Below are positions 2,711 through 8,230 of a stretch of DNA of 9,713 nucleotides, one piece after another. The number at the start of each line of letters is the position of its first letter. The stretch's first letter is position 1. Location of the stretch: IMG/VR virus record IMGVR_UViG_3300029250_000062, positions 1-9,713 of that record, one strand, 5' to 3'. The notes below the pieces were generated by a model, which ran no database searches, had not been told where the DNA came from, and was given only the letters and a program-made list of their open reading frames with translations. The stretch comes from a virus. Its lineage: Duplodnaviria > Heunggongvirae > Uroviricota > Caudoviricetes. The translations under genes and the position numbers were made by a program.

Positions 2711-3244
2711 ATGAGCAGGAAACTCCACTATGGTTTATCGGTAGCCGTTCTGGCGCTGATTGCCACAGGTGCTTCTGCGCCTGAAATCCTCGACCAGTTT
2801 CTTGACGAAAAAGAAGGTAACCACACCACGGCATACCGTGATGGTGCGGGGATCTGGACCATCTGCCGTGGTGCCATCATGGTGGATGGCAAACCTGTCG
2901 TCCCGGGCATGAAGTTGTCGAAGGAAAAATGCGCTCAGGTTAATGCCATTGAACGTGATAAGGCGCTGGCATGGGTGGAGAAAAACATCAAATTGCCACT
3001 GACTGAACCGCAGAAAGCGGGCATCGCGTCATTCTGTCCGTACAACATCGGGCCTTCGAAATGCTTCACCTCAACGTTTTACCGGAAACTGAACGCCGGA
3101 GACCGGAAAGGTGCATGTGCTGAAATCCGCCGATGGATATATGACGGCGGCAGGGACTGTCGGAATCGCTCAAATAACTGTTACGGGCAGGTATCGCGGC
3201 GTGACCAGGAGAGCGCGCTGGCGTGCTGGGGAATTGACAGATAA
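2711..3244 (+). CDS. R: SAR endolysin (T4-lysozyme-like muramidase, R21-type)
   Basis: 177 aa. N-terminal weakly hydrophobic signal-anchor-release segment LHYGLSVAVLALIATGASAP. E-8aa-D-5aa-T catalytic triad in EGNHTTAYRDGAGIWT. Starts 5 nt after the holin stop. Confidence 0.85.
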   Translation: MSRKLHYGLSVAVLALIATGASAPEILDQFLDEKEGNHTTAYRDGAGIWTICRGAIMVDGKPVVPGMKLSKEKCAQVNAIERDKALAWVEKNIKLPLTEPQKAGIASFCPYNIGPSKCFTSTFYRKLNAGDRKGACAEIRRWIYDGGRDCRNRSNNCYGQVSRRDQESALACWGIDR

Positions 3245-3367: not shown

Positions 3368-3400
3368 GTGTTTCTGACCTTGGATAAGGCAAGGGAGAAC

Positions 3401-3583
3401 ATGGAAAAGTATAAACGAATTCTGTTGAGGTTGACTATGAAAAACGGCCTTGAACTGAAAGCGCCTGTAACTGATGACATCAGCAGAGCACTGGCTTTTG
3501 CCATTAAGTGGGTGGCGGTCGGTGTTGCTGTGTCCCCGATGCTGTATGGGCTGGCAAAACTGGTCATTGCGTTGAAATCGTGA
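3401..3583 (+). CDS. Hypothetical small membrane protein (60 aa), C-terminal transmembrane helix
   Basis: ATG at 3401 preceded by SD AGGGAG (3391-3396). Basic N-terminus [12 protein letters not shown]-terminal hydrophobic [22 protein letters not shown]. Lies between endolysin and spanin genes. Confidence 0.45.
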
Positions 3584-3597
3584 AGGGAGGATTAAGC

Positions 3598-3729
3598 ATG
3601 TCAGACAAACTCATAACGCTGGCGAAGATCCTCTGTGTAATTGTCGGCATTTCATTTTCACTAATGCTGGTTGCTCTTTTTCTTTCCATGGCCTGGATGA
3701 TGTTGTCTTCGTCGGGGCTGCTGGGGTGA
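3598..3729 (+). CDS. Hypothetical small membrane protein (43 aa), single transmembrane helix
   Basis: ATG at 3598 preceded by strong SD AAGGGAGGA. Sequence [43 protein letters not shown]. Its stop TGA (3727-3729) overlaps the GTG start of Rz (GTGA), suggesting translational coupling. Confidence 0.45.
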
Positions 3730-4199
3730 ACATAAACCGAATGCTTTCCGCGTTTATCGTTATTCTGCTGGTGGCCTGTGGTGCGCTGTGGATGGCAACA
3801 GACCATTACCGTGATAACGCGATTACCTACAAAGCGCAGCGCGATAACAAAGCCAGTGAACTGAAGCTGGCGAACGCAACCATTACTGATATGCAGGTGC
3901 GCCAGCGCGATGTTGCTGCGCTCGATGCAAAATACTCGAGGGAATTAGCCGATGCGAGAGCTGAAAATGAAACTCTTCGCGCTGACGTTGCCGCTGGTCG
4001 TAAGCGCCTGCGGATCAACGCCACCTGTCCAGGCTCCGTGCGTGAAGCCCCCACCACCTCCGGCGTGGATAATGCAACCGGCCCCAGACTGGCAGACGCC
4101 GCTGAACGGGATTATTTCATCCTCAGAGAACGGTTGATGACAATGCAGAAGCAGCTGGAAGGGGCACAGCTATACATTCGTGAGCAATGCCTCAGATAA
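3726..4199 (+). CDS. Rz: Rz inner-membrane spanin (i-spanin)
   Basis: N-terminal TM helix ([18 protein letters not shown]) then [14 protein letters not shown]...[25 protein letters not shown], which tracks lambda Rz closely (recollection). GTG start at 3726; alternative ATG at 3741. Confidence 0.85.
3952..4137 (+). CDS. Rz1: Rz1 outer-membrane lipoprotein spanin (o-spanin), embedded in the +1 frame of Rz
   Basis: Lipobox LVVSAC, proline-rich [26 protein letters not shown] typical of lambda-type Rz1. SD GAGGGAA upstream; alternative start ATG 3967. Fully nested within Rz. Confidence 0.8.
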
Positions 4200-4588
4200 A
4201 AACCGGCCAAGGATAATCCGCTGAAGATTTGCCGGTGGCTAAAGGGGCCAAGCCACCAATTTACGTAATTAGCCACAGAGATACAATATTTTAGTTTACT
4301 TATGTATTTCTGAAGCATGTCTTTGCGCAGTATCGTCGCCGTATTCCCACATGAACAGAGACCGCAGCCCTACCGGGAGACTCCTCTGCGCGAGTGTGCG
4401 GGGATAATCAAAAACGATACACACCGGGGTTTACCGCGTTAACGGAGCGCGGCGTTGTCCCCTCATGGTCGCTGGTCCGGTGCGATGGTGGAAGAAACCG
4501 GACGATGTGTTACCTCGCAAGCTCTGTTATGTCATGTGTCTGATTTGTGATTTAAGTCGGATAATTGTCGTTGCCATTAAACAGAGGA

Positions 4589-4631
4589 TTGATGACCGAC
4601 AGGGTGGCATTGTTAGAATAAGACTTATTCT
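4589..4631 (+). promoter_or_regulatory. Putative sigma70 promoter (extended -10) with overlapping perfect palindromic operator-like site
   Basis: -35-like TTGATG (4589-4594), 19-bp spacer, extended -10 TGtTAGAAT (4611-4619). Palindrome AGAATAAG-a-CTTATTCT (4615-4631, 8-bp perfect arms) overlaps the -10/+1 region and ends 14 bp before the downstream lipoprotein start. Confidence 0.3.
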
Positions 4632-4645
4632 TATCTGTGCCGGGA

Positions 4646-4978
4646 ATGAAAATGAAAAGAAATCTTCCGTTAATTATTTTGTTGTCTTCTCTGGTTATGG
4701 GCTGTACGCAACATAAAACAGATATGCCCCGACAGTTGGTTAAGGCATTACCACAATATCCGGCCTATGCAGCGGCAAATTATATAAAGGGACGGGTTGA
4801 TGTGAAGTTTGATATTGGTGCTGATGGTACTGTCACCCGAATTGAGTTTATCCGTTCAGAGCCGCACCATTTGTTTGATGAGCAGGTTGTAAAGGCGATG
4901 GCAAAATGGCGATTTGAGAAGGACAGGCCGTGTAAAGGCGTGAAGAAAACGTTTATCTTTAGTCCTTCTGCACCCTGA
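4646..4978 (+). CDS. Lipoprotein consisting essentially of a TonB C-terminal-like domain (moron candidate)
   Basis: Signal peptide with lipobox (MKMKRNLPLIILLSSLVMG-C; Thr at +2 suggests outer-membrane sorting). Mature part LPQYPAYAAANYIKGRVDVKFDIGADGTVTRIEFIRSEPHHLFDEQVVKAMAKWRFE parallels the E. coli TonB C-terminal domain (PQYP...G.V.V.F.....DG.V.......P...F...V..AM..WR(Y/F), from memory). Alternative start ATG 4652 has better SD spacing. Confidence 0.7.
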   Translation: MKMKRNLPLIILLSSLVMGCTQHKTDMPRQLVKALPQYPAYAAANYIKGRVDVKFDIGADGTVTRIEFIRSEPHHLFDEQVVKAMAKWRFEKDRPCKGVKKTFIFSPSAP

Positions 4979-5011
4979 TTATTTCATCAGAAATTAATTA
5001 TCACTCTGTTG

Positions 5012-5113
5012 TTATTCTGTACATCCCGGCAGGGTAAGTCTTGTTCCGTCGGATATGAAGATGAAATATTGTTGGAGGACAGTGGGTACCTGCTCCTGTA
5101 ACCGAACGTTCAT
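5012..5113 (-). CDS. Possible 33-aa ORF translationally coupled to the upstream RHH gene (speculative)
   Basis: On the minus strand the ATG overlaps the RHH stop (ATGA). Product MNVRLQEQVPTVLQQYFIFISDGTRLTLPGCTE. Below the length cutoff of the supplied ORF track; no family recognised. Confidence 0.2.
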   Translation of the reverse strand: MNVRLQEQVPTVLQQYFIFISDGTRLTLPGCTE

Positions 5114-5310
5114 TTCTCGTTATTTTTCATGCTGGCCGGGCGCAGATGCGTTGCATCTGTTGCCAGCCTTCTCCTGCAGGCTTCAATAACCCACGCTGAA
5201 AAGTTACCGGACCCTTTATGCTCAAGGGCGATGCTGATCTGTTCAATCATGTGATTGGGGAAACGGATATTGCGGGTTGTGGTTCTGCGGGTCCGGTTTT
5301 TCGATGACAT
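5110..5310 (-). CDS. Arc/Mnt-like ribbon-helix-helix DNA-binding protein (possibly YlcI/YnfO DUF3950-like)
   Basis: 66 aa from ATG at 5310-5308 with SD AAGGAAA 8 nt upstream on the minus strand. RNIRFPNHMIEQISIALEHKGSGNFSAWVIEACRRRL aligns in pattern with Arc repressor FNLRWPREVLDLVRKVAEENGRSVNSEIYQRVMESF (beta-strand then two helices). Opposite strand to the surrounding late genes. Confidence 0.65.
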   Translation of the reverse strand: MSSKNRTRRTTTRNIRFPNHMIEQISIALEHKGSGNFSAWVIEACRRRLATDATHLRPASMKNNEK

Positions 5311-5351
5311 ATTTATTTCCTTTACTGATTGCCATATGACGGGGATTTTAC

Positions 5352-5717
5352 ATGGCTCAGCTTCGTACACTCCAGAGCAGAATCAAAACACTGAATACCC
5401 GACGGGTGAATATTCTGAAGGGGGAGCAGCGTCGTGTCAGTGGCAGTGCACGTGTTTCCCTCAAGCGTCATATCTGGCTGAGGGACGCCGGGCAGTGCTG
5501 TATCTGTGGTCGTGTGGTTGACCTCTGTGACAGTGAACTTGATCACCGAATTGCACTTCAGTTCGGTGGTGGTAATGAGGAGACGAATCTCTGGACGCTC
5601 TGTACCGAATGCCATCGACAAAAGTCTGCTCGTGAAGCGGCGGGTGGTATGCCGGACCCGACGCTGCCGGAGGTGTCCGGAGGTAGTGGCAGAGCGGACG
5701 ACATCATCGGACTGTAA
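5352..5717 (+). CDS. HNH endonuclease (packaging-associated, HK97 gp74-like)
   Basis: CxxC...DH...N...CxxCH arrangement: CCICGRVVD, SELDHRIALQFGGGNEETNLWTLCTECHRQK. Sits immediately upstream of the cos-like region and terS, the usual place in HK97-like packaging modules. Confidence 0.85.
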   Translation: MAQLRTLQSRIKTLNTRRVNILKGEQRRVSGSARVSLKRHIWLRDAGQCCICGRVVDLCDSELDHRIALQFGGGNEETNLWTLCTECHRQKSAREAAGGMPDPTLPEVSGGSGRADDIIGL

Positions 5718-6008: not shown

Positions 6009-6572
6009 GTGCTGACAACGCAAAAACGAAAATTTGCGCTGGCGCTCATGTCCGGGAAAAACAAAACAGCGTCAGCCATTGCCGCCGGTTATTCGGCGAA
6101 GACCGCCAGGGTTAAAGGCTCGCAGCTGGCAAAAGATCCGGAGGTGCTTGCGTTTATAGCCCGTAAACAATGCGAGACGGTGGAGGTGGATGAGGTTCCT
6201 GTTTACCGGCAGAAAAAATCAGAGCAGGAGGATAAACCCCGTCGCCGTGAGGCGGCTGCAATACCACAGCCGGACGAAAACAATCCGGAGATGCCACCGT
6301 CCGCGGTGATGTCTCCTGGTATTGAATATATGGAGGATGGTCTTCCCGATCCGGTGAAAGCCATGGGGCGGATCCTGGTGGAAAACCTCTGCATTGATCC
6401 GAAACTGGCACTGGATGCGGCCTGGCGTCTGGCGCAGTTCACGCACCATAAAAAAGGGGATACCGGGAAAAAATCGGCAAAAGGTGATGCCGCGAAAAAA
6501 GCGGCTAACCGTTTTGCGGTGCCACCGCCACCCAGACTGGTGGTGAATAACGATAATGAGGGCAACGGATGA
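6009..6572 (+). CDS. terS: Terminase small subunit (HTH-containing)
   Basis: GTG start at 6009 with SD GGGAGG/AGGAGG (5998-6006). N-terminal LTTQKRKFALALMSGKNKTASAIAAGYSAKTARVKGSQL matches the usual terS signature (K.FA..Y....N.T.AAI.AGYS.KTA...GS.L). Stop TGA overlaps the terL ATG (ATGA at 6569-6572). Confidence 0.85.
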   Translation: MLTTQKRKFALALMSGKNKTASAIAAGYSAKTARVKGSQLAKDPEVLAFIARKQCETVEVDEVPVYRQKKSEQEDKPRRREAAAIPQPDENNPEMPPSAVMSPGIEYMEDGLPDPVKAMGRILVENLCIDPKLALDAAWRLAQFTHHKKGDTGKKSAKGDAAKKAANRFAVPPPPRLVVNNDNEGNG

Positions 6573-8230
6573 TACCTGTATGGAGCACAGCCTGCCCGGA
6601 CTGGGCAGAGCGCCTGAAAAAGGGGCTGTCGATTATTCCGGATCCGATTTATCCGGACGAGGCCGCACATGCCCTGGCGATTTTTAAACAACTGCGGATT
6701 GTGGATGCACCTGGTAGCCCGACGTTCGGGGAGTCCTGTGCACGGTGGGTGTTTGACCTGGTGGCGGCCCTGTTTGGCTCCTACGATGCGCAGACCGGTG
6801 TACGCCATATCAAGGAAGTTTTTATCCTTATCCCCAAGAAAAACTCGAAGTCCACGCTGGCCGCGGGGATCATGATGACGGCGCTGTTACTGAACTGGCG
6901 GCAGGCGGCGGGTTACACGATTCTGGCCCCGACTGTGGAGGTGGCGGCCAACGCCTTCAACCCTGCCCGGGATATGGTACGACGTGACGATGATCTGGAT
7001 GACCTCTGCCAGGTACAGACCCATATCCGGACCATCACCCACAGGGTGACAGACACCACCCTGAAGGTGGTGGCAGCCGATCCGAATACGGTGTCCGGTA
7101 TCAAGTCCGTGGGTACGCTGATTGATGAGTTGTGGCTGTTTGGCAAGCAGTGCAAGGCGGAGGACATGTTACGTGAAGCCATAGGCGGCCTTGCCTCCCG
7201 CCCGGAAGGGTTTGTGGTGTATACGACCACCCAGTCGAATGAACCGCCCGCCGGGGTGTTCAGACAGAAACTGCAGTACGCCCGGGATGTGCGCGACGGC
7301 AAAATTCATGATCCGCACTTTCTGCCGGTGATATTTGAACACCCTCCTGAAATGGTGGAAAGCGGGACTCACCTGCTGATGGAAAACCTCGCCATGGTCA
7401 ATCCGAATCTCGGCTATTCAGTGGATGAGGCCTTTCTGTACCGGGAGTACCGTAAAGCCCGGGAAGCCGGTGAAGAGACATTCCGGGGGTTCATGTCAAA
7501 ACACGCCAATGTGGAAATTGGTCTTGCCCTGCGCTCTGACCGCTGGGCGGGGGCTGATTTCTGGGAAGAGCAGGGCCGTTGTATCAGCCTGGACGATATC
7601 CTGCGTCGTGCTGATGTGGTGACGGTGGGGATTGACGGCGGAGGGCTGGATGATCTGCTGGGGATGTATGTGATTGGGCGTGACCGGGAGACCCGCGAAT
7701 GGCTGGGCTGGGGCCATGCCTGGGCGCATGAAACCGCGGTGGTCCGACGGAAGAGCGAGGCGTCCCGGTTTCAGGATCTTGTTGCCTGTGGAGATATGAC
7801 CATTGTCCGGCGTGTCGGGGATGACACGGCGGAAGTGGCGGAATATGTGCGTCGCATTCATGAGGCTGAGTTACTGGACCATATCGGTATTGACCCGTCA
7901 GGGGTGGGGCAGATTCTGGATTCACTGGCGGAAGCCGGGATCCCCGACGGAATTGTGGTGGGGATAAGCCAGGGCTGGAAACTGGGCGGGGCCATTAAAA
8001 CCACCGAGCGCAAACTGGCTGAAGGGGTGCTGGTGCATGGTGACCAGCCCCTGATGGCCTGGTGTGTCGGCAATGCCCGGGTGGAGCCTAAAGGTAACGC
8101 CATTCTTATCACCAAACAGGCCAGTGGACGGGGAAAAATTGACCCGCTGATGGCGCTGTTCAATGCGGTCTCCCTGATGTCCCTTAACCCGGAACCGAAA
8201 AAGAAAGAATATGCGGTTTTTTTCATATAA
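6569..8230 (+). CDS. terL: Terminase large subunit (ATPase + RNase H-like nuclease domains)
   Basis: 553 aa. Walker A-like ILIPKKNSKSTLAAG, Walker B-like GTLIDELW, C-terminal nuclease-type acidic cluster VTVGIDGGGLDDLLGMYVIG. Translationally coupled to terS. Confidence 0.9.
   Translation: MIPVWSTACPDWAERLKKGLSIIPDPIYPDEAAHALAIFKQLRIVDAPGSPTFGESCARWVFDLVAALFGSYDAQTGVRHIKEVFILIPKKNSKSTLAAGIMMTALLLNWRQAAGYTILAPTVEVAANAFNPARDMVRRDDDLDDLCQVQTHIRTITHRVTDTTLKVVAADPNTVSGIKSVGTLIDELWLFGKQCKAEDMLREAIGGLASRPEGFVVYTTTQSNEPPAGVFRQKLQYARDVRDGKIHDPHFLPVIFEHPPEMVESGTHLLMENLAMVNPNLGYSVDEAFLYREYRKAREAGEETFRGFMSKHANVEIGLALRSDRWAGADFWEEQGRCISLDDILRRADVVTVGIDGGGLDDLLGMYVIGRDRETREWLGWGHAWAHETAVVRRKSEASRFQDLVACGDMTIVRRVGDDTAEVAEYVRRIHEAELLDHIGIDPSGVGQILDSLAEAGIPDGIVVGISQGWKLGGAIKTTERKLAEGVLVHGDQPLMAWCVGNARVEPKGNAILITKQASGRGKIDPLMALFNAVSLMSLNPEPKKKEYAVFFI

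What the first reader, a model, noticed from the sequence alone, without database searches (positions are those of the whole stretch)
4589..4978. Moron lipoprotein that is essentially a free TonB C-terminal domain, with its own promoter and palindromic operator
Between the spanin genes and the HNH/cos/terminase module sits a 110-aa ORF with a lipoprotein signal peptide (lipobox LVMG-C, Thr at +2) followed almost at once by a region that parallels the TonB C-terminal domain motif for motif (PQYP, G-V-V-F-I--DG-V, AM--WRF). It lacks the TonB N-terminal anchor and proline-rich spacer. It has an autonomous promoter-like element (extended -10 TGtTAGAAT) overlapped by a perfect 8-1-8 palindrome AGAATAAGaCTTATTCT, i.e. 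it looks individually regulated. Periplasmic TonB C-terminal fragments are known to act as dominant-negative inhibitors of TonB-dependent transport. A prophage-encoded, lipid-anchored TonB-C-terminal mimic could therefore block TonB-box-dependent receptors, giving superinfection exclusion against TonB-dependent phages (T1, phi80-like) and group B colicins, or altering siderophore uptake in the lysogen. I do not know of a characterised phage protein of this architecture.
Basis: partly seen in the sequence, partly recalled or inferred. Interest (0 to 1): 0.8.

Follow-up and report, generated by a model that had tools for sequence, protein, structure and literature searches.

The report
Prophage lipoprotein copying TonB's C-terminal domain
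A lambdoid (Stx-type) prophage carries a small self-contained accessory gene for an outer-membrane lipoprotein that is essentially the receptor-binding end of the host protein TonB; relatives occur in about 30% of complete E. coli genomes, it is already annotated, and its function, most plausibly jamming TonB-dependent uptake of phages and colicins, has never been tested.

Summary
It has a conserved lipoprotein signal (LVMG|C, Thr +2), a 7-residue tether and a complete TonB C-terminal domain (Pfam TonB_C 1.3e-14; model pLDDT 86; 1.1-1.3 A rmsd to E. coli TonB CTD, including the BtuB- and FhuA-bound forms). It stops just after the TonB-box-binding strand and lacks E. coli TonB's last, occluding strand.

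The gene sits in a 604-bp, 42% GC insertion (4507-5110) that a related phage lacks, so it is a true moron. It is under strong purifying selection (dN/dS 0.12). Its 72%-identical homologue in prophage Perceval is transcribed in the lysogen.

The palindromic "operator" is real but specific to this clade. It is absent from the expressed Perceval/phage 21 clade and has no second copy in a phage with the identical promoter region.

The gene is not new as a sequence. It is annotated "TonB family protein", occurs in phage 21, and matches 1618 of 5426 complete E. coli genomes. I found no functional study. The decoy mechanism is plausible and untested (about 0.4).

In passing: a covarying about 180-nt RNA-like element (4327-4506), not in Rfam, marks the cargo boundary in hundreds of lambdoid phages.

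The parts
4507..5110 (+). Moron insertion (604 bp) carrying promoter-like site, ORF and 3' tail
   Evidence: Absent from phage vB_EcoS-569R3, whose flanks join precisely (alignment A5). GC is 42.2% against 51-56% in the lysis and terminase flanks. A different, shorter cargo sits at the same site in Stx1_14040.
4496..4506 (+). Left copy of the imperfect direct repeat AACCGGACGAT at the insertion junction
   Evidence: Read from the sequence. 569R3 has a single copy, AACCGAACGTT.
5100..5110 (+). Right copy of the junction repeat AACCGAACGTT
4592..4619 (+). Sigma-70-like promoter candidate: -35 ATGACC, 16-nt spacer, TG-extended -10 TGtTAGAAT
   Evidence: Consensus scan, 9/12 matches plus TG. TGTYAGAATAAGAC is kept in the phage 21 clade although synonymous sites are saturated. 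Invariant in 81 close loci. The homologue is expressed in the LF82 lysogen. No transcription start site has been mapped.
4615..4631 (.). Perfect 8-1-8 palindrome AGAATAAG-A-CTTATTCT overlapping the -10
   Evidence: Clade-specific: the right arm is absent in the phage 21/Perceval clade. No second copy in JLK-2012. Function unknown.
4652..4978 (+). ORF, 108 aa plus stop: prolipoprotein with a TonB C-terminal domain
   Evidence: The exact protein is seen on at least 1000 contigs, named 'TonB family protein'. dN/dS is 0.12 against phage 21.
4652..4705 (+). Signal peptide MKRNLPLIILLSSLVMG and lipobox Cys18 (codon 4703-4705); the +2 residue is Thr
   Evidence: Read from the sequence. The lipobox is conserved across the family: LVMGC, LAVGC, LSVGC, LLSAC, LMGC, ISAC and others.
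4706..4726 (+). 7-residue tether TQHKTDM between the lipidated Cys and the folded domain
   Evidence: pLDDT rises above 95 from about residue 28 in 110-aa numbering. Tethers are 7-14 residues across the family.
4727..4963 (+). TonB_C domain, equivalent to E. coli TonB 153-231; ends 4 residues after the TonB-box-binding strand
   Evidence: phmmer alignment to 1u07 and 8rd6. Foldseek rmsd 1.1-1.3 A to 2gsk_B, 2grx_C and 1u07. DSSP elements in the order E-H-E-E-H-E.

Best explanation
Shown or strongly supported: the region is a self-contained moron (4507-5110) of a lambdoid, Stx-type prophage. It is transcribed from its own weak extended -10 promoter in the lysogen. No terminator was found upstream, so it is presumably also read through by the late transcript. 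It encodes a 108-aa prolipoprotein. After lipidation at Cys18 and Lol sorting (Thr at +2), a TonB C-terminal domain should hang from the inner leaflet of the outer membrane on a 7-residue tether.

Inferred mechanism: this domain acts as a decoy for TonB boxes. Its edge strand (equivalent to TonB 224-231) is permanently exposed, because the protein lacks the last strand that E. coli TonB must swap out. It can therefore pair by beta-augmentation with the TonB boxes of TonB-dependent transporters (FhuA, FepA, Cir, BtuB and others) or of incoming group B colicins. It sits exactly where those boxes emerge. It has no link to ExbB-ExbD, so it occupies the box without transmitting energy and competes with host TonB.

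Predicted consequence: the lysogen, and the lysing cell, become less permeable to TonB-dependent phages (T1, phi80, H8), group B colicins and siderophore-receptor microcins. The cost is reduced siderophore and B12 uptake.
For: Identity and fold.

Lipoprotein signal: conserved over 33-100% identity, with +2 never Asp.

Tether: always short, 7-14 aa. This holds the domain at the periplasmic face of the outer membrane.

Selection: purifying, dN/dS 0.12 overall and 0.10 in the domain, with dS about 1.4.

Moron status: insertion and low GC.

Expression: the Perceval homologue is expressed in the lysogen (PMC9928086).

Prevalence: matches in 1618 of 5426 complete E. coli genomes, of which 414 have a match over at least 80% of the query.

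Position: fixed between the lysis cassette and terminase even in a 40%-identical Klebsiella phage.

Geometry: the region around TonB residue 160, at the N-terminal end of the domain, contacts TonB boxes in vivo. This makes an N-terminal outer-membrane tether geometrically plausible (PMC11658791).

Suppressor position: the window protein has Leu where TonB has Q160, and TonB Q160L is the classical broad suppressor of TonB-box mutations.

Precedents: exported TonB periplasmic fragments inhibit FhuA and FecA transport (Howard et al. 2001, title seen). Phage outer-membrane lipoproteins Llp and Cor inactivate FhuA from the periplasmic side (bioRxiv 10.64898/2026.03.26.714494).
Against: - No experiment on this family was found.
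- No complex could be modelled with the tools at hand, so it is untested whether a 7-residue N-terminal tether allows the TonB-like docking pose.
- TonB residues implicated in receptor contact are not kept. R166 is Tyr. Q160 is L, Y, H or P across the family. V226 is a conserved Lys or Arg.
- General jamming of TonB would starve about 30% of E. coli strains of iron. The effect must therefore be weak, regulated or receptor-specific.
- Relatives at 33-46% identity sit in apparently non-prophage chromosomal contexts in Raoultella, Klebsiella, Pantoea and Erwinia. This hints at a housekeeping role for the fold-plus-lipid architecture.
- JLK-2012 (J followed by lom, no cor annotated) shows nothing pointing to a TonB-dependent receptor. 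Self-exclusion is therefore not indicated.
Confidence: 0.4

Rival explanations
1. The TonB-CTD fold is used here for a different partner, not TonB boxes. Candidates are peptidoglycan, OmpA, Lpp, or another periplasmic or outer-membrane protein. On this view it is an envelope or host-interaction fitness factor of the lysogen. That would match the Bor/Iss lipoprotein that occupies the neighbouring moron slot in related phages.
For: Chromosomal, seemingly non-phage relatives with the same lipoprotein architecture occur in Raoultella, Klebsiella, Pantoea and Erwinia. Receptor-contact residues of TonB are replaced: R166 by Tyr, and Q160 is variable. The family has its own conserved signature, SEPxHLFD...KWRFE..KP, distinct from TonB. 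It is carried by about 30% of E. coli with no known iron-uptake defect. bor/iss lies next to it in phage 21, Perceval and ATCC 11775.
Against: The whole TonB-box-binding sheet, including the edge strand, is kept at 1.1-1.3 A rmsd to receptor-bound TonB. No alternative ligand is indicated by any search. TonB-box binding is mostly backbone-mediated, so side-chain changes do not exclude it (established knowledge of 2GRX and 2GSK; PMC11658791).
Confidence: 0.3
2. It is mainly a lytic-cycle function. The protein would be made from the Q-antiterminated late transcript and block TonB-dependent receptors of the dying cell. That would stop superinfection and keep progeny from being wasted on debris, as T5 Llp does.
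For: The gene is co-oriented with the late operon, directly after Rz/Rz1 and before terminase, and no terminator is predicted between them. Llp is the precedent.
Against: The homologue is transcribed in the uninduced lysogen. The insertion carries its own promoter-like site. Nothing indicates that the carrier phages use a TonB-dependent receptor. A late-made lipoprotein would have little time to act.
Confidence: 0.12
3. It is a decaying fragment of a captured tonB gene with no function, as the old annotations 'partial tonB-like' and 'TonB fragment' imply.
For: Database names.
Against: dN/dS is 0.12 with saturated synonymous sites. A lipoprotein signal has been acquired and conserved. Length is constant at about 108-111 aa across genera. 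It is closer to the lipoprotein family (97-100 bits) than to TonB (about 62 bits). It is expressed.
Confidence: 0.03
4. It is a lysis protein (spanin), as the label of PHROG 1267 says.
For: PHROG 1267, labelled 'Rz-like spanin', matches at E=5.7e-43. It is an outer-membrane lipoprotein encoded next to the lysis cassette.
Against: The window already has a canonical embedded Rz/Rz1 pair. The protein is a globular TonB_C domain. It lacks the short Pro-rich o-spanin layout and the C-terminal TM segment of a u-spanin. The label is most likely propagated from neighbouring genes.
Confidence: 0.02

Closest known systems
C-terminal domain of TonB (E. coli TonB 150-239; Pfam PF03544, TIGR01352; PDB 1U07, 2GSK, 2GRX)
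   Same: Same fold at 1.1-1.3 A rmsd and 37-42% identity. It keeps the YP motif, the conserved Gly, Pro, Phe and Trp core, and the edge strand that pairs with TonB boxes.
   Different: It has no N-terminal TM anchor (ExbB/ExbD coupling) and no Pro-rich spacer. It has a lipoprotein signal and is anchored to the opposite membrane. It lacks TonB's last strand (232-239). R166 is Tyr and Q160 is Leu. It therefore cannot transduce energy.
Engineered periplasmic TonB fragments (Howard, Herrmann, Stratilo & Braun 2001, J Bacteriol 183:5885)
   Same: A free TonB C-terminal region in the periplasm without the energy-coupling N-terminus. By its title, the paper reports inhibition of FecA and FhuA transport.
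   Different: Those are laboratory constructs, soluble and overexpressed. This one is natural, lipid-anchored, about 40% identical to TonB, and expressed at prophage level. I could not read the paper itself.
Phage superinfection-exclusion lipoproteins Llp (T5) and Cor (phi80, N15, HK022, mEp167)
   Same: Small phage-encoded lipoproteins of the inner leaflet of the outer membrane. They act on the periplasmic face of a TonB-dependent transporter.
   Different: The fold is unrelated, and there was no hit to them in any search. Llp and Cor are FhuA-specific and act allosterically on the extracellular loops. A TonB-CTD decoy would target the shared TonB box and so, in principle, many transporters and colicins.
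Lambdoid morons bor/iss and lom
   Same: The same genomic niche, between Rz and cos/terminase. The gene is next to bor/iss in phage 21, Perceval and ATCC 11775. These are also envelope proteins expressed from the prophage, and the gene has atypical GC.
   Different: Different protein family and presumably a different target.
Chromosomal 'TonB family' lipoproteins of Raoultella, Klebsiella, Pantoea and Erwinia (uncharacterised)
   Same: The same architecture: signal, lipobox, short tether and a single TonB_C domain of about 110-135 aa, at 33-46% identity.
   Different: Not in prophage late regions, judged only from ORF inspection of the neighbours. Their function is equally unknown.

Membership tests
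TonB_C domain (PF03544 / TIGR01352) | Profile match above the curated cut-off | tested here: met
   Pfam 54.8 bits against a cut-off of 24.6. TIGR01352 54.5 bits against 27.1.
TonB_C domain (PF03544 / TIGR01352) | Three-stranded sheet with two helices, superposable on solved TonB CTDs | tested here: met
   AF2 pLDDT 86.4. Foldseek hits 1u07, 2gsk_B and 2grx_C with TM(target) 0.88-0.92 and rmsd 1.1-1.4 A.
TonB_C domain (PF03544 / TIGR01352) | Binds TonB boxes by beta-augmentation | not testable with these tools
   The edge strand is present and unobstructed. No complex prediction or binding assay was possible.
TonB energy transducer (full-length TonB, NCBIfam PRK10819 equivalogs) | N-terminal transmembrane anchor that couples to ExbB-ExbD | tested here: not met
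   The N-terminus is a cleavable lipoprotein signal. The equivalog models score 49-74 bits against cut-offs of 265-448 and match only their C-terminal 80 positions.
TonB energy transducer (full-length TonB, NCBIfam PRK10819 equivalogs) | Proline-rich periplasm-spanning spacer | tested here: not met
   Only 7 residues (TQHKTDM) lie between Cys18 and the domain.
Bacterial outer-membrane lipoprotein | Positively charged n-region, hydrophobic core and a lipobox [LVI][ASTVIM][GAS]C | tested here: met
   MKRN-LPLIILLSSLVMG-C read from the sequence. The Cys is invariant across the 14 family members in alignment A3. No SignalP or LipoP was available.
Bacterial outer-membrane lipoprotein | No Asp at +2 (Lol-avoidance signal absent), hence outer-membrane sorting | tested here: met
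   +2 is Thr here and T, S or A in the homologues. Actual lipidation and localisation are not testable here.
Moron (Hendrix-type accessory transcription unit in a prophage) | Present or absent between otherwise collinear relatives | tested here: met
   A 604-bp insertion relative to vB_EcoS-569R3. Other cargo occupies the same site in Stx1_14040 and others.
Moron (Hendrix-type accessory transcription unit in a prophage) | Base composition different from the flanks | tested here: met
   42% GC against 51-56%.
Moron (Hendrix-type accessory transcription unit in a prophage) | Own promoter; expressed in the lysogen | tested here: inconclusive
   The promoter-like site lies inside the insertion and its -10 is conserved. 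Expression is shown only for the 72%-identical Perceval homologue. No transcription start site is known for this allele.
Moron (Hendrix-type accessory transcription unit in a prophage) | Own terminator | tested here: not met
   No intrinsic-terminator-like site in 3600-5500.
Cor/Llp superinfection-exclusion lipoproteins | Sequence or fold similarity to Cor or Llp | tested here: not met
   The Pfam, PHROG and PDB fold searches return only TonB and TolA-like folds. It is a functional analogy only.
Spanins (PHROG 1267 label) | o-spanin embedded in or adjacent to an i-spanin gene, short Pro-rich mature part; or u-spanin with a C-terminal TM segment | tested here: not met
   A separate Rz/Rz1 pair is present. 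The protein is a globular TonB_C domain with no C-terminal TM segment.
Known anti-phage defence systems (PADLOC) | Match to a defence-system model | tested here: not met
   Only a chance-level hit, E=0.022.

The most novel reading that the evidence does not exclude
About a third of E. coli strains carry a prophage-borne, outer-membrane-tethered 'dead' TonB head. It would occupy the TonB boxes of siderophore and B12 receptors and of invading group B colicins. One 91-residue protein would then give lysogens broad, receptor-independent protection against TonB-dependent phages, colicins and microcins. In phage 21 and Perceval the cost might be offset by the co-carried TonB-independent SitABCD metal importer. 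This would be the first natural inhibitor of the Ton system and a new class of superinfection-exclusion / bacteriocin-immunity factor.
Probability: 0.3. Interest if true: 0.75.

Novelty: new variant of a known kind. Interest (0 to 1): 0.5.

Why it matters
TonB-dependent transporters are the gates for siderophores, vitamin B12, many phages, group B colicins, microcins and siderophore-antibiotic conjugates. No natural protein inhibitor of the TonB-receptor interaction is known.

If this very common prophage gene is such an inhibitor, it would change how phage, colicin and 'Trojan-horse' antibiotic susceptibility is read across E. coli lineages, including EHEC, AIEC and APEC. It would add a new mechanism to lysogenic conversion. 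It would also give a ready-made, evolution-optimised TonB-box binder for structural and drug-design work.

The test is cheap: one plasmid, standard phages and colicins, and an iron-uptake assay.

If the decoy idea fails, the family still needs explaining, because the architecture is conserved and under purifying selection in both phages and chromosomes.

Tried and rejected
- Fur regulation of the palindrome. The best match to the 19-bp Fur consensus is 13/19, no better than several other places in the window. Rejected.
- Palindrome as a CI/Cro operator. There is no site within 3 mismatches anywhere else in JLK-2012, and its OR region has different repeats. Rejected.
- Palindrome as an RNA hairpin or terminator. 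It is AU-rich with a 1-nt loop and no T-run, and no terminator is called. Rejected.
- Spanin annotation of PHROG 1267. Rejected.
- Pseudogene or TonB remnant. Rejected by dN/dS.
- Defence-system libraries. No PADLOC hit.
- Viral structure library BFVD. No hit with E < 0.1, so there is no characterised viral structural relative.
- Upstream small ORFs. The 41-aa ORF 4317-4442 is interrupted in 569R3. The short ORF that starts in the hairpin loop (ATG 4485) is 21 aa here and 45 aa in phage 21, with only the first 6-13 residues alike. I do not treat it as a gene.
- Rfam on the whole window at E<=1. Nothing in 4300-5100.
- AgvB/AsxR-type prophage sRNA dyads. These lie between the late promoter and the lysis genes, not downstream of Rz (PMC7873438). 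I did not equate them with the conserved element.
A narrower alignment worked.
- Nine full-text literature searches found no functional study of a phage TonB-like lipoprotein. Howard et al. 2001 is not held in the library.
Full report
**What is there**

The window is the late region of a lambdoid, Stx-phage-like prophage. In order it holds:
- a large protein of unknown function (43-1764; PHROG 143, no assigned function; annotated yjhS / DUF1737 domain-containing in JLK-2012);
- holin (2491-2706);
- endolysin (2711-3244);
- Rz (3726-4199) with embedded Rz1 (3952-4137);
- the ORF in question;
- a reverse-strand YlcI/YnfO-like gene (5110-5370);
- HNH endonuclease (5352-5717);
- terminase small subunit (6009-6572);
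- terminase large subunit (6569-8230).

The ORF runs to the stop at 4976-4978. In 81 near-identical loci that ATG is often ATA, or the ATGAAA unit is lost or triplicated, while the ATG directly before AAAAGA is constant. A GGGA Shine-Dalgarno-like motif sits 7 nt upstream of 4652. NCBI and all homologues begin at MKR. I therefore take 4652-4978, 108 aa.

**The protein**

- The N-terminus is MKRN-LPLIILLSSLVMG-C.
  - This is a textbook lipoprotein signal with Thr at +2.
  - The Cys is invariant across the 14 family members in alignment A3, and the lipobox is present in all full-length relatives down to 33% identity.
  - The +2 residue is T, S or A and never Asp.
  - By the established Lol rules this predicts sorting to the outer membrane.
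- Seven residues after the Cys, a domain begins that matches the following:
  - Pfam TonB_C at 1.3e-14;
  - TIGR01352 at 1.1e-14;
  - the solved E. coli and Salmonella TonB C-terminal domains at about 1e-16, aligned residue for residue to TonB 153-231.
- An AlphaFold2 model built on 20 family members has pLDDT 86, and above 95 over the domain.
- Foldseek against the PDB returns only TonB C-terminal domains at the top.
  - They superpose at 1.1-1.4 A rmsd.
  - They include the BtuB-bound (2gsk_B) and FhuA-bound (2grx_C) forms.
  - TolA domain III follows as a weak echo.
- There is no TM anchor and no Pro-rich spacer. The full-length TonB equivalog models match only with their last 80 positions and far below cut-off.
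- The protein ends four residues after the strand that pairs with TonB boxes in the complexes.
  - It therefore lacks the last strand of E. coli TonB.
  - In free E. coli TonB that strand has to be displaced and exchanged for the TonB box.
  - TonB domains without it are described as 'open' to the box (PMC6118199).

**It is a functional gene**

Against the 72%-identical phage 21 allele, dN/dS is 0.12 overall and 0.10 in the domain, with synonymous sites near saturation at dS about 1.4. Length and architecture are constant. An exhaustive HMMER search finds a set of about 107-135-aa relatives with the same lipobox, short tether and single TonB_C layout. These score higher (about 97-100 bits) than TonB itself (about 62 bits). 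The phage gene therefore belongs to a distinct lipoprotein branch of the TonB_C superfamily. It is not a recent fragment of tonB.

**It is a moron**

- Phage vB_EcoS-569R3 is collinear on both sides but lacks 604 bp, window 4507-5110. The junctions carry an imperfect direct repeat, AACCGGACGAT and AACCGAACGTT.
- The insertion is 42% GC against 51-56% in the flanks.
- The insertion contains the promoter-like site, the ORF and a 132-nt tail.
- No intrinsic terminator is predicted.
- Other phages carry different cargo at exactly the same point.
- The gene keeps its position between lysis cassette and terminase in phage 21, Perceval, ev017, the PhiR phages, E. coli ATCC 11775 (next to bor/iss) and a 40%-identical Klebsiella phage.

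**Expression and the 'operator'**

- The scan finds ATGACC-16-TAGAAT with an upstream TG at 4592-4619. The number of such hits in the region is not above chance.
- The block TGTYAGAATAAGAC is conserved between the two clades although their synonymous sites are saturated. It is invariant among the close loci.
- Direct evidence comes from the literature. In E. coli LF82, the Perceval gene LF82_160, 'TonB fragment', is transcribed 8-fold above the prophage background in uninduced cultures and is listed as a moron (PMC9928086, Table 1). I link it to the 72%-identical Perceval CDS through their shared annotation 'TonB fragment' (locus tag PERCE_65 in the phage record).
- The palindrome AGAATAAG-A-CTTATTCT is exact at 4615-4631 and unlikely by chance.
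- Its right arm lies in a 13-nt segment that the expressed phage 21/Perceval clade lacks.
- Five close loci have a C-to-T change in the palindrome.
- JLK-2012, which has the identical promoter region, has no related site elsewhere, including its cI-cro operator region.
- The palindrome does not resemble a Fur box above background.
- It may modulate this allele, but it is not a defining part of the system.

**Is it new?**

Not as a sequence.
- The exact protein occurs on at least 1000 contigs as 'TonB family protein'.
- It is 100% identical in Stx1a phages and Lys8385Vzw, and 99% identical in JLK-2012.
- Relatives match in 1618 of 5426 complete E. coli genomes. Of these, 414 have a match covering at least 80% of the query.
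- The Center for Phage Technology annotated it in phage 21 as 'TonB C-terminal domain protein'.
- PHROGs files it as family 1267 under the misleading label 'Rz-like spanin'.
- Nine full-text searches found no study of what it does.

**Mechanism**

Shown:
- the fold;
- the lipoprotein signal;
- the short tether of 7-14 residues family-wide;
- the exposed edge strand;
- purifying selection;
- expression of a homologue in a lysogen.

From established knowledge:
- TonB boxes bind by beta-augmentation to that strand.
- The region around residue 160, at the N-terminal end of the domain, lies next to the box in vivo (PMC11658791).
- Exported TonB fragments inhibit FhuA and FecA function (Howard et al. 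2001, title only).
- Phage outer-membrane lipoproteins Llp and Cor already work from the periplasmic face of FhuA.

Inferred:
- the tethered domain can reach and hold TonB boxes;
- this reduces TonB-dependent entry of phages, colicins and microcins.

A curiosity: the residue aligned with TonB Q160 is Leu, and TonB Q160L is the classical suppressor of TonB-box mutants. The position varies in the family, so I give this little weight.

Against the decoy reading:
- TonB R166 and V226 are replaced by a conserved Tyr and Lys/Arg.
- Universal jamming would be costly in so many strains.
- Relatives exist in non-phage chromosomal contexts in Raoultella, Klebsiella, Pantoea and Erwinia.
- The carrier phage shows J followed by lom, with no cor annotated and nothing pointing to a TonB-dependent receptor.

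I put the decoy mechanism at about 0.4. A different-partner envelope function gets about 0.3. A mainly late-cycle Llp-like role gets about 0.1.

**Seen in passing: a conserved element upstream of the insertion**

The 180 nt immediately upstream of the insertion (4327-4506) are conserved in about 400 lambdoid phage records, whether or not they carry the TonB gene. Homology always stops at the same point, after which at least seven different cargos follow.

The element has no conserved ORF and no Rfam match. It fits a multi-helix structure on the + strand:
- 96% of cells are paired, against 35-60% when the partners are slid.
- The covariation score exceeds all 500 shuffles.
- Variation in the two long helices is almost entirely G-U-compatible transitions.
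- There are compensatory GC-to-UA changes in the terminal hairpin, 4475-4481 with 4497-4503.

The structure was derived from the same sequences, so this is suggestive and not proof. The moron junction repeat overlaps the 3' arm of that hairpin.

**Verdict**

The gene is known and annotated but functionally uncharacterised. The decoy hypothesis is reasonable, cheap to test and would matter if true.

Noticed in passing
window 4327-4506 (+): An approximately 180-nt non-coding element lies directly upstream of the moron. It is conserved in about 400 lambdoid phage records, with or without the TonB gene. Homology ends at the same base, after which at least 7 different cargos follow.

It is not in Rfam. 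It fits a multi-helix + strand structure:
- P1: 4330-4336 with 4414-4420.
- P2: 4342-4352 with 4396-4406.
- G-run/C-run helix: 4426-4429 with 4459-4462, enclosing a hairpin at 4434-4452.
- P4: 4475-4481 with 4497-4503, with a conserved loop UGCGAUGGUGGAAGAAA.

96% of cells are paired against 35-60% in slid controls, and covariation exceeds 500/500 shuffles. It may be a structured RNA or a recombination boundary of the late operon. The coordinates for P4 in notebook entry 4 are wrong by 5; those given here are correct.
   Followed up: yes
window 4485-4550 (+); L002 2852-2989: A short ORF starts at a conserved AUG in the P4 hairpin loop (MVEETG...) and runs into the variable cargo. It is 21 aa here and 45 aa in phage 21 (annotated CPT_21_72). 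Only the first 6-13 residues are alike. It could be a leader or coupling ORF, or nothing.
   Followed up: partly
window 4806-4779 (- strand): The best sigma-70 consensus match of the region (TTCACA-16-TATAAT, 11/12) lies antisense inside the TonB-like ORF. In phage 21 the -10 is kept, under coding constraint, and the -35 is weaker. It may be an antisense transcript or a chance match in AT-rich DNA.
   Followed up: no
L006 (phage 21, 21967-24502 of OL657228) and Perceval (PMC9928086 Table 1): The phage 21/Perceval clade that carries the TonB-like lipoprotein also carries the sitABCD Mn/Fe ABC importer, which does not need TonB. In LF82 both are expressed as morons. This could compensate for damped TonB-dependent iron uptake. 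The association was not tested statistically.
   Followed up: partly
L088-L098 (Raoultella, Klebsiella, Erwinia, Pantoea chromosomes): Lipoprotein-plus-TonB_C proteins at 33-46% identity sit in apparently non-prophage neighbourhoods, for example next to lacI/lacZ-like genes in Raoultella and near amyA-like genes in Pantoea. The neighbours were judged from ORF translations only and were not profile-searched.
   Followed up: partly
PHROG family 1267: The phage orthologous group that holds this protein is labelled 'Rz-like spanin'. The members are TonB_C lipoproteins, so the label is probably an annotation error that will spread to new phage genomes.
   Followed up: yes
window 3368-3583 and 3508-3729 (+): Two overlapping small ORFs with hydrophobic segments lie between the endolysin and Rz. 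The first matches PHROG 1115, of unknown function. They may be extra lysis-cassette membrane proteins.
   Followed up: no
window 5110-5370 (-) and 5352-5717 (+): A YlcI/YnfO-family (DUF3950) gene on the opposite strand abuts the right end of the moron. It overlaps the start of the HNH endonuclease gene that precedes the terminase.
   Followed up: no
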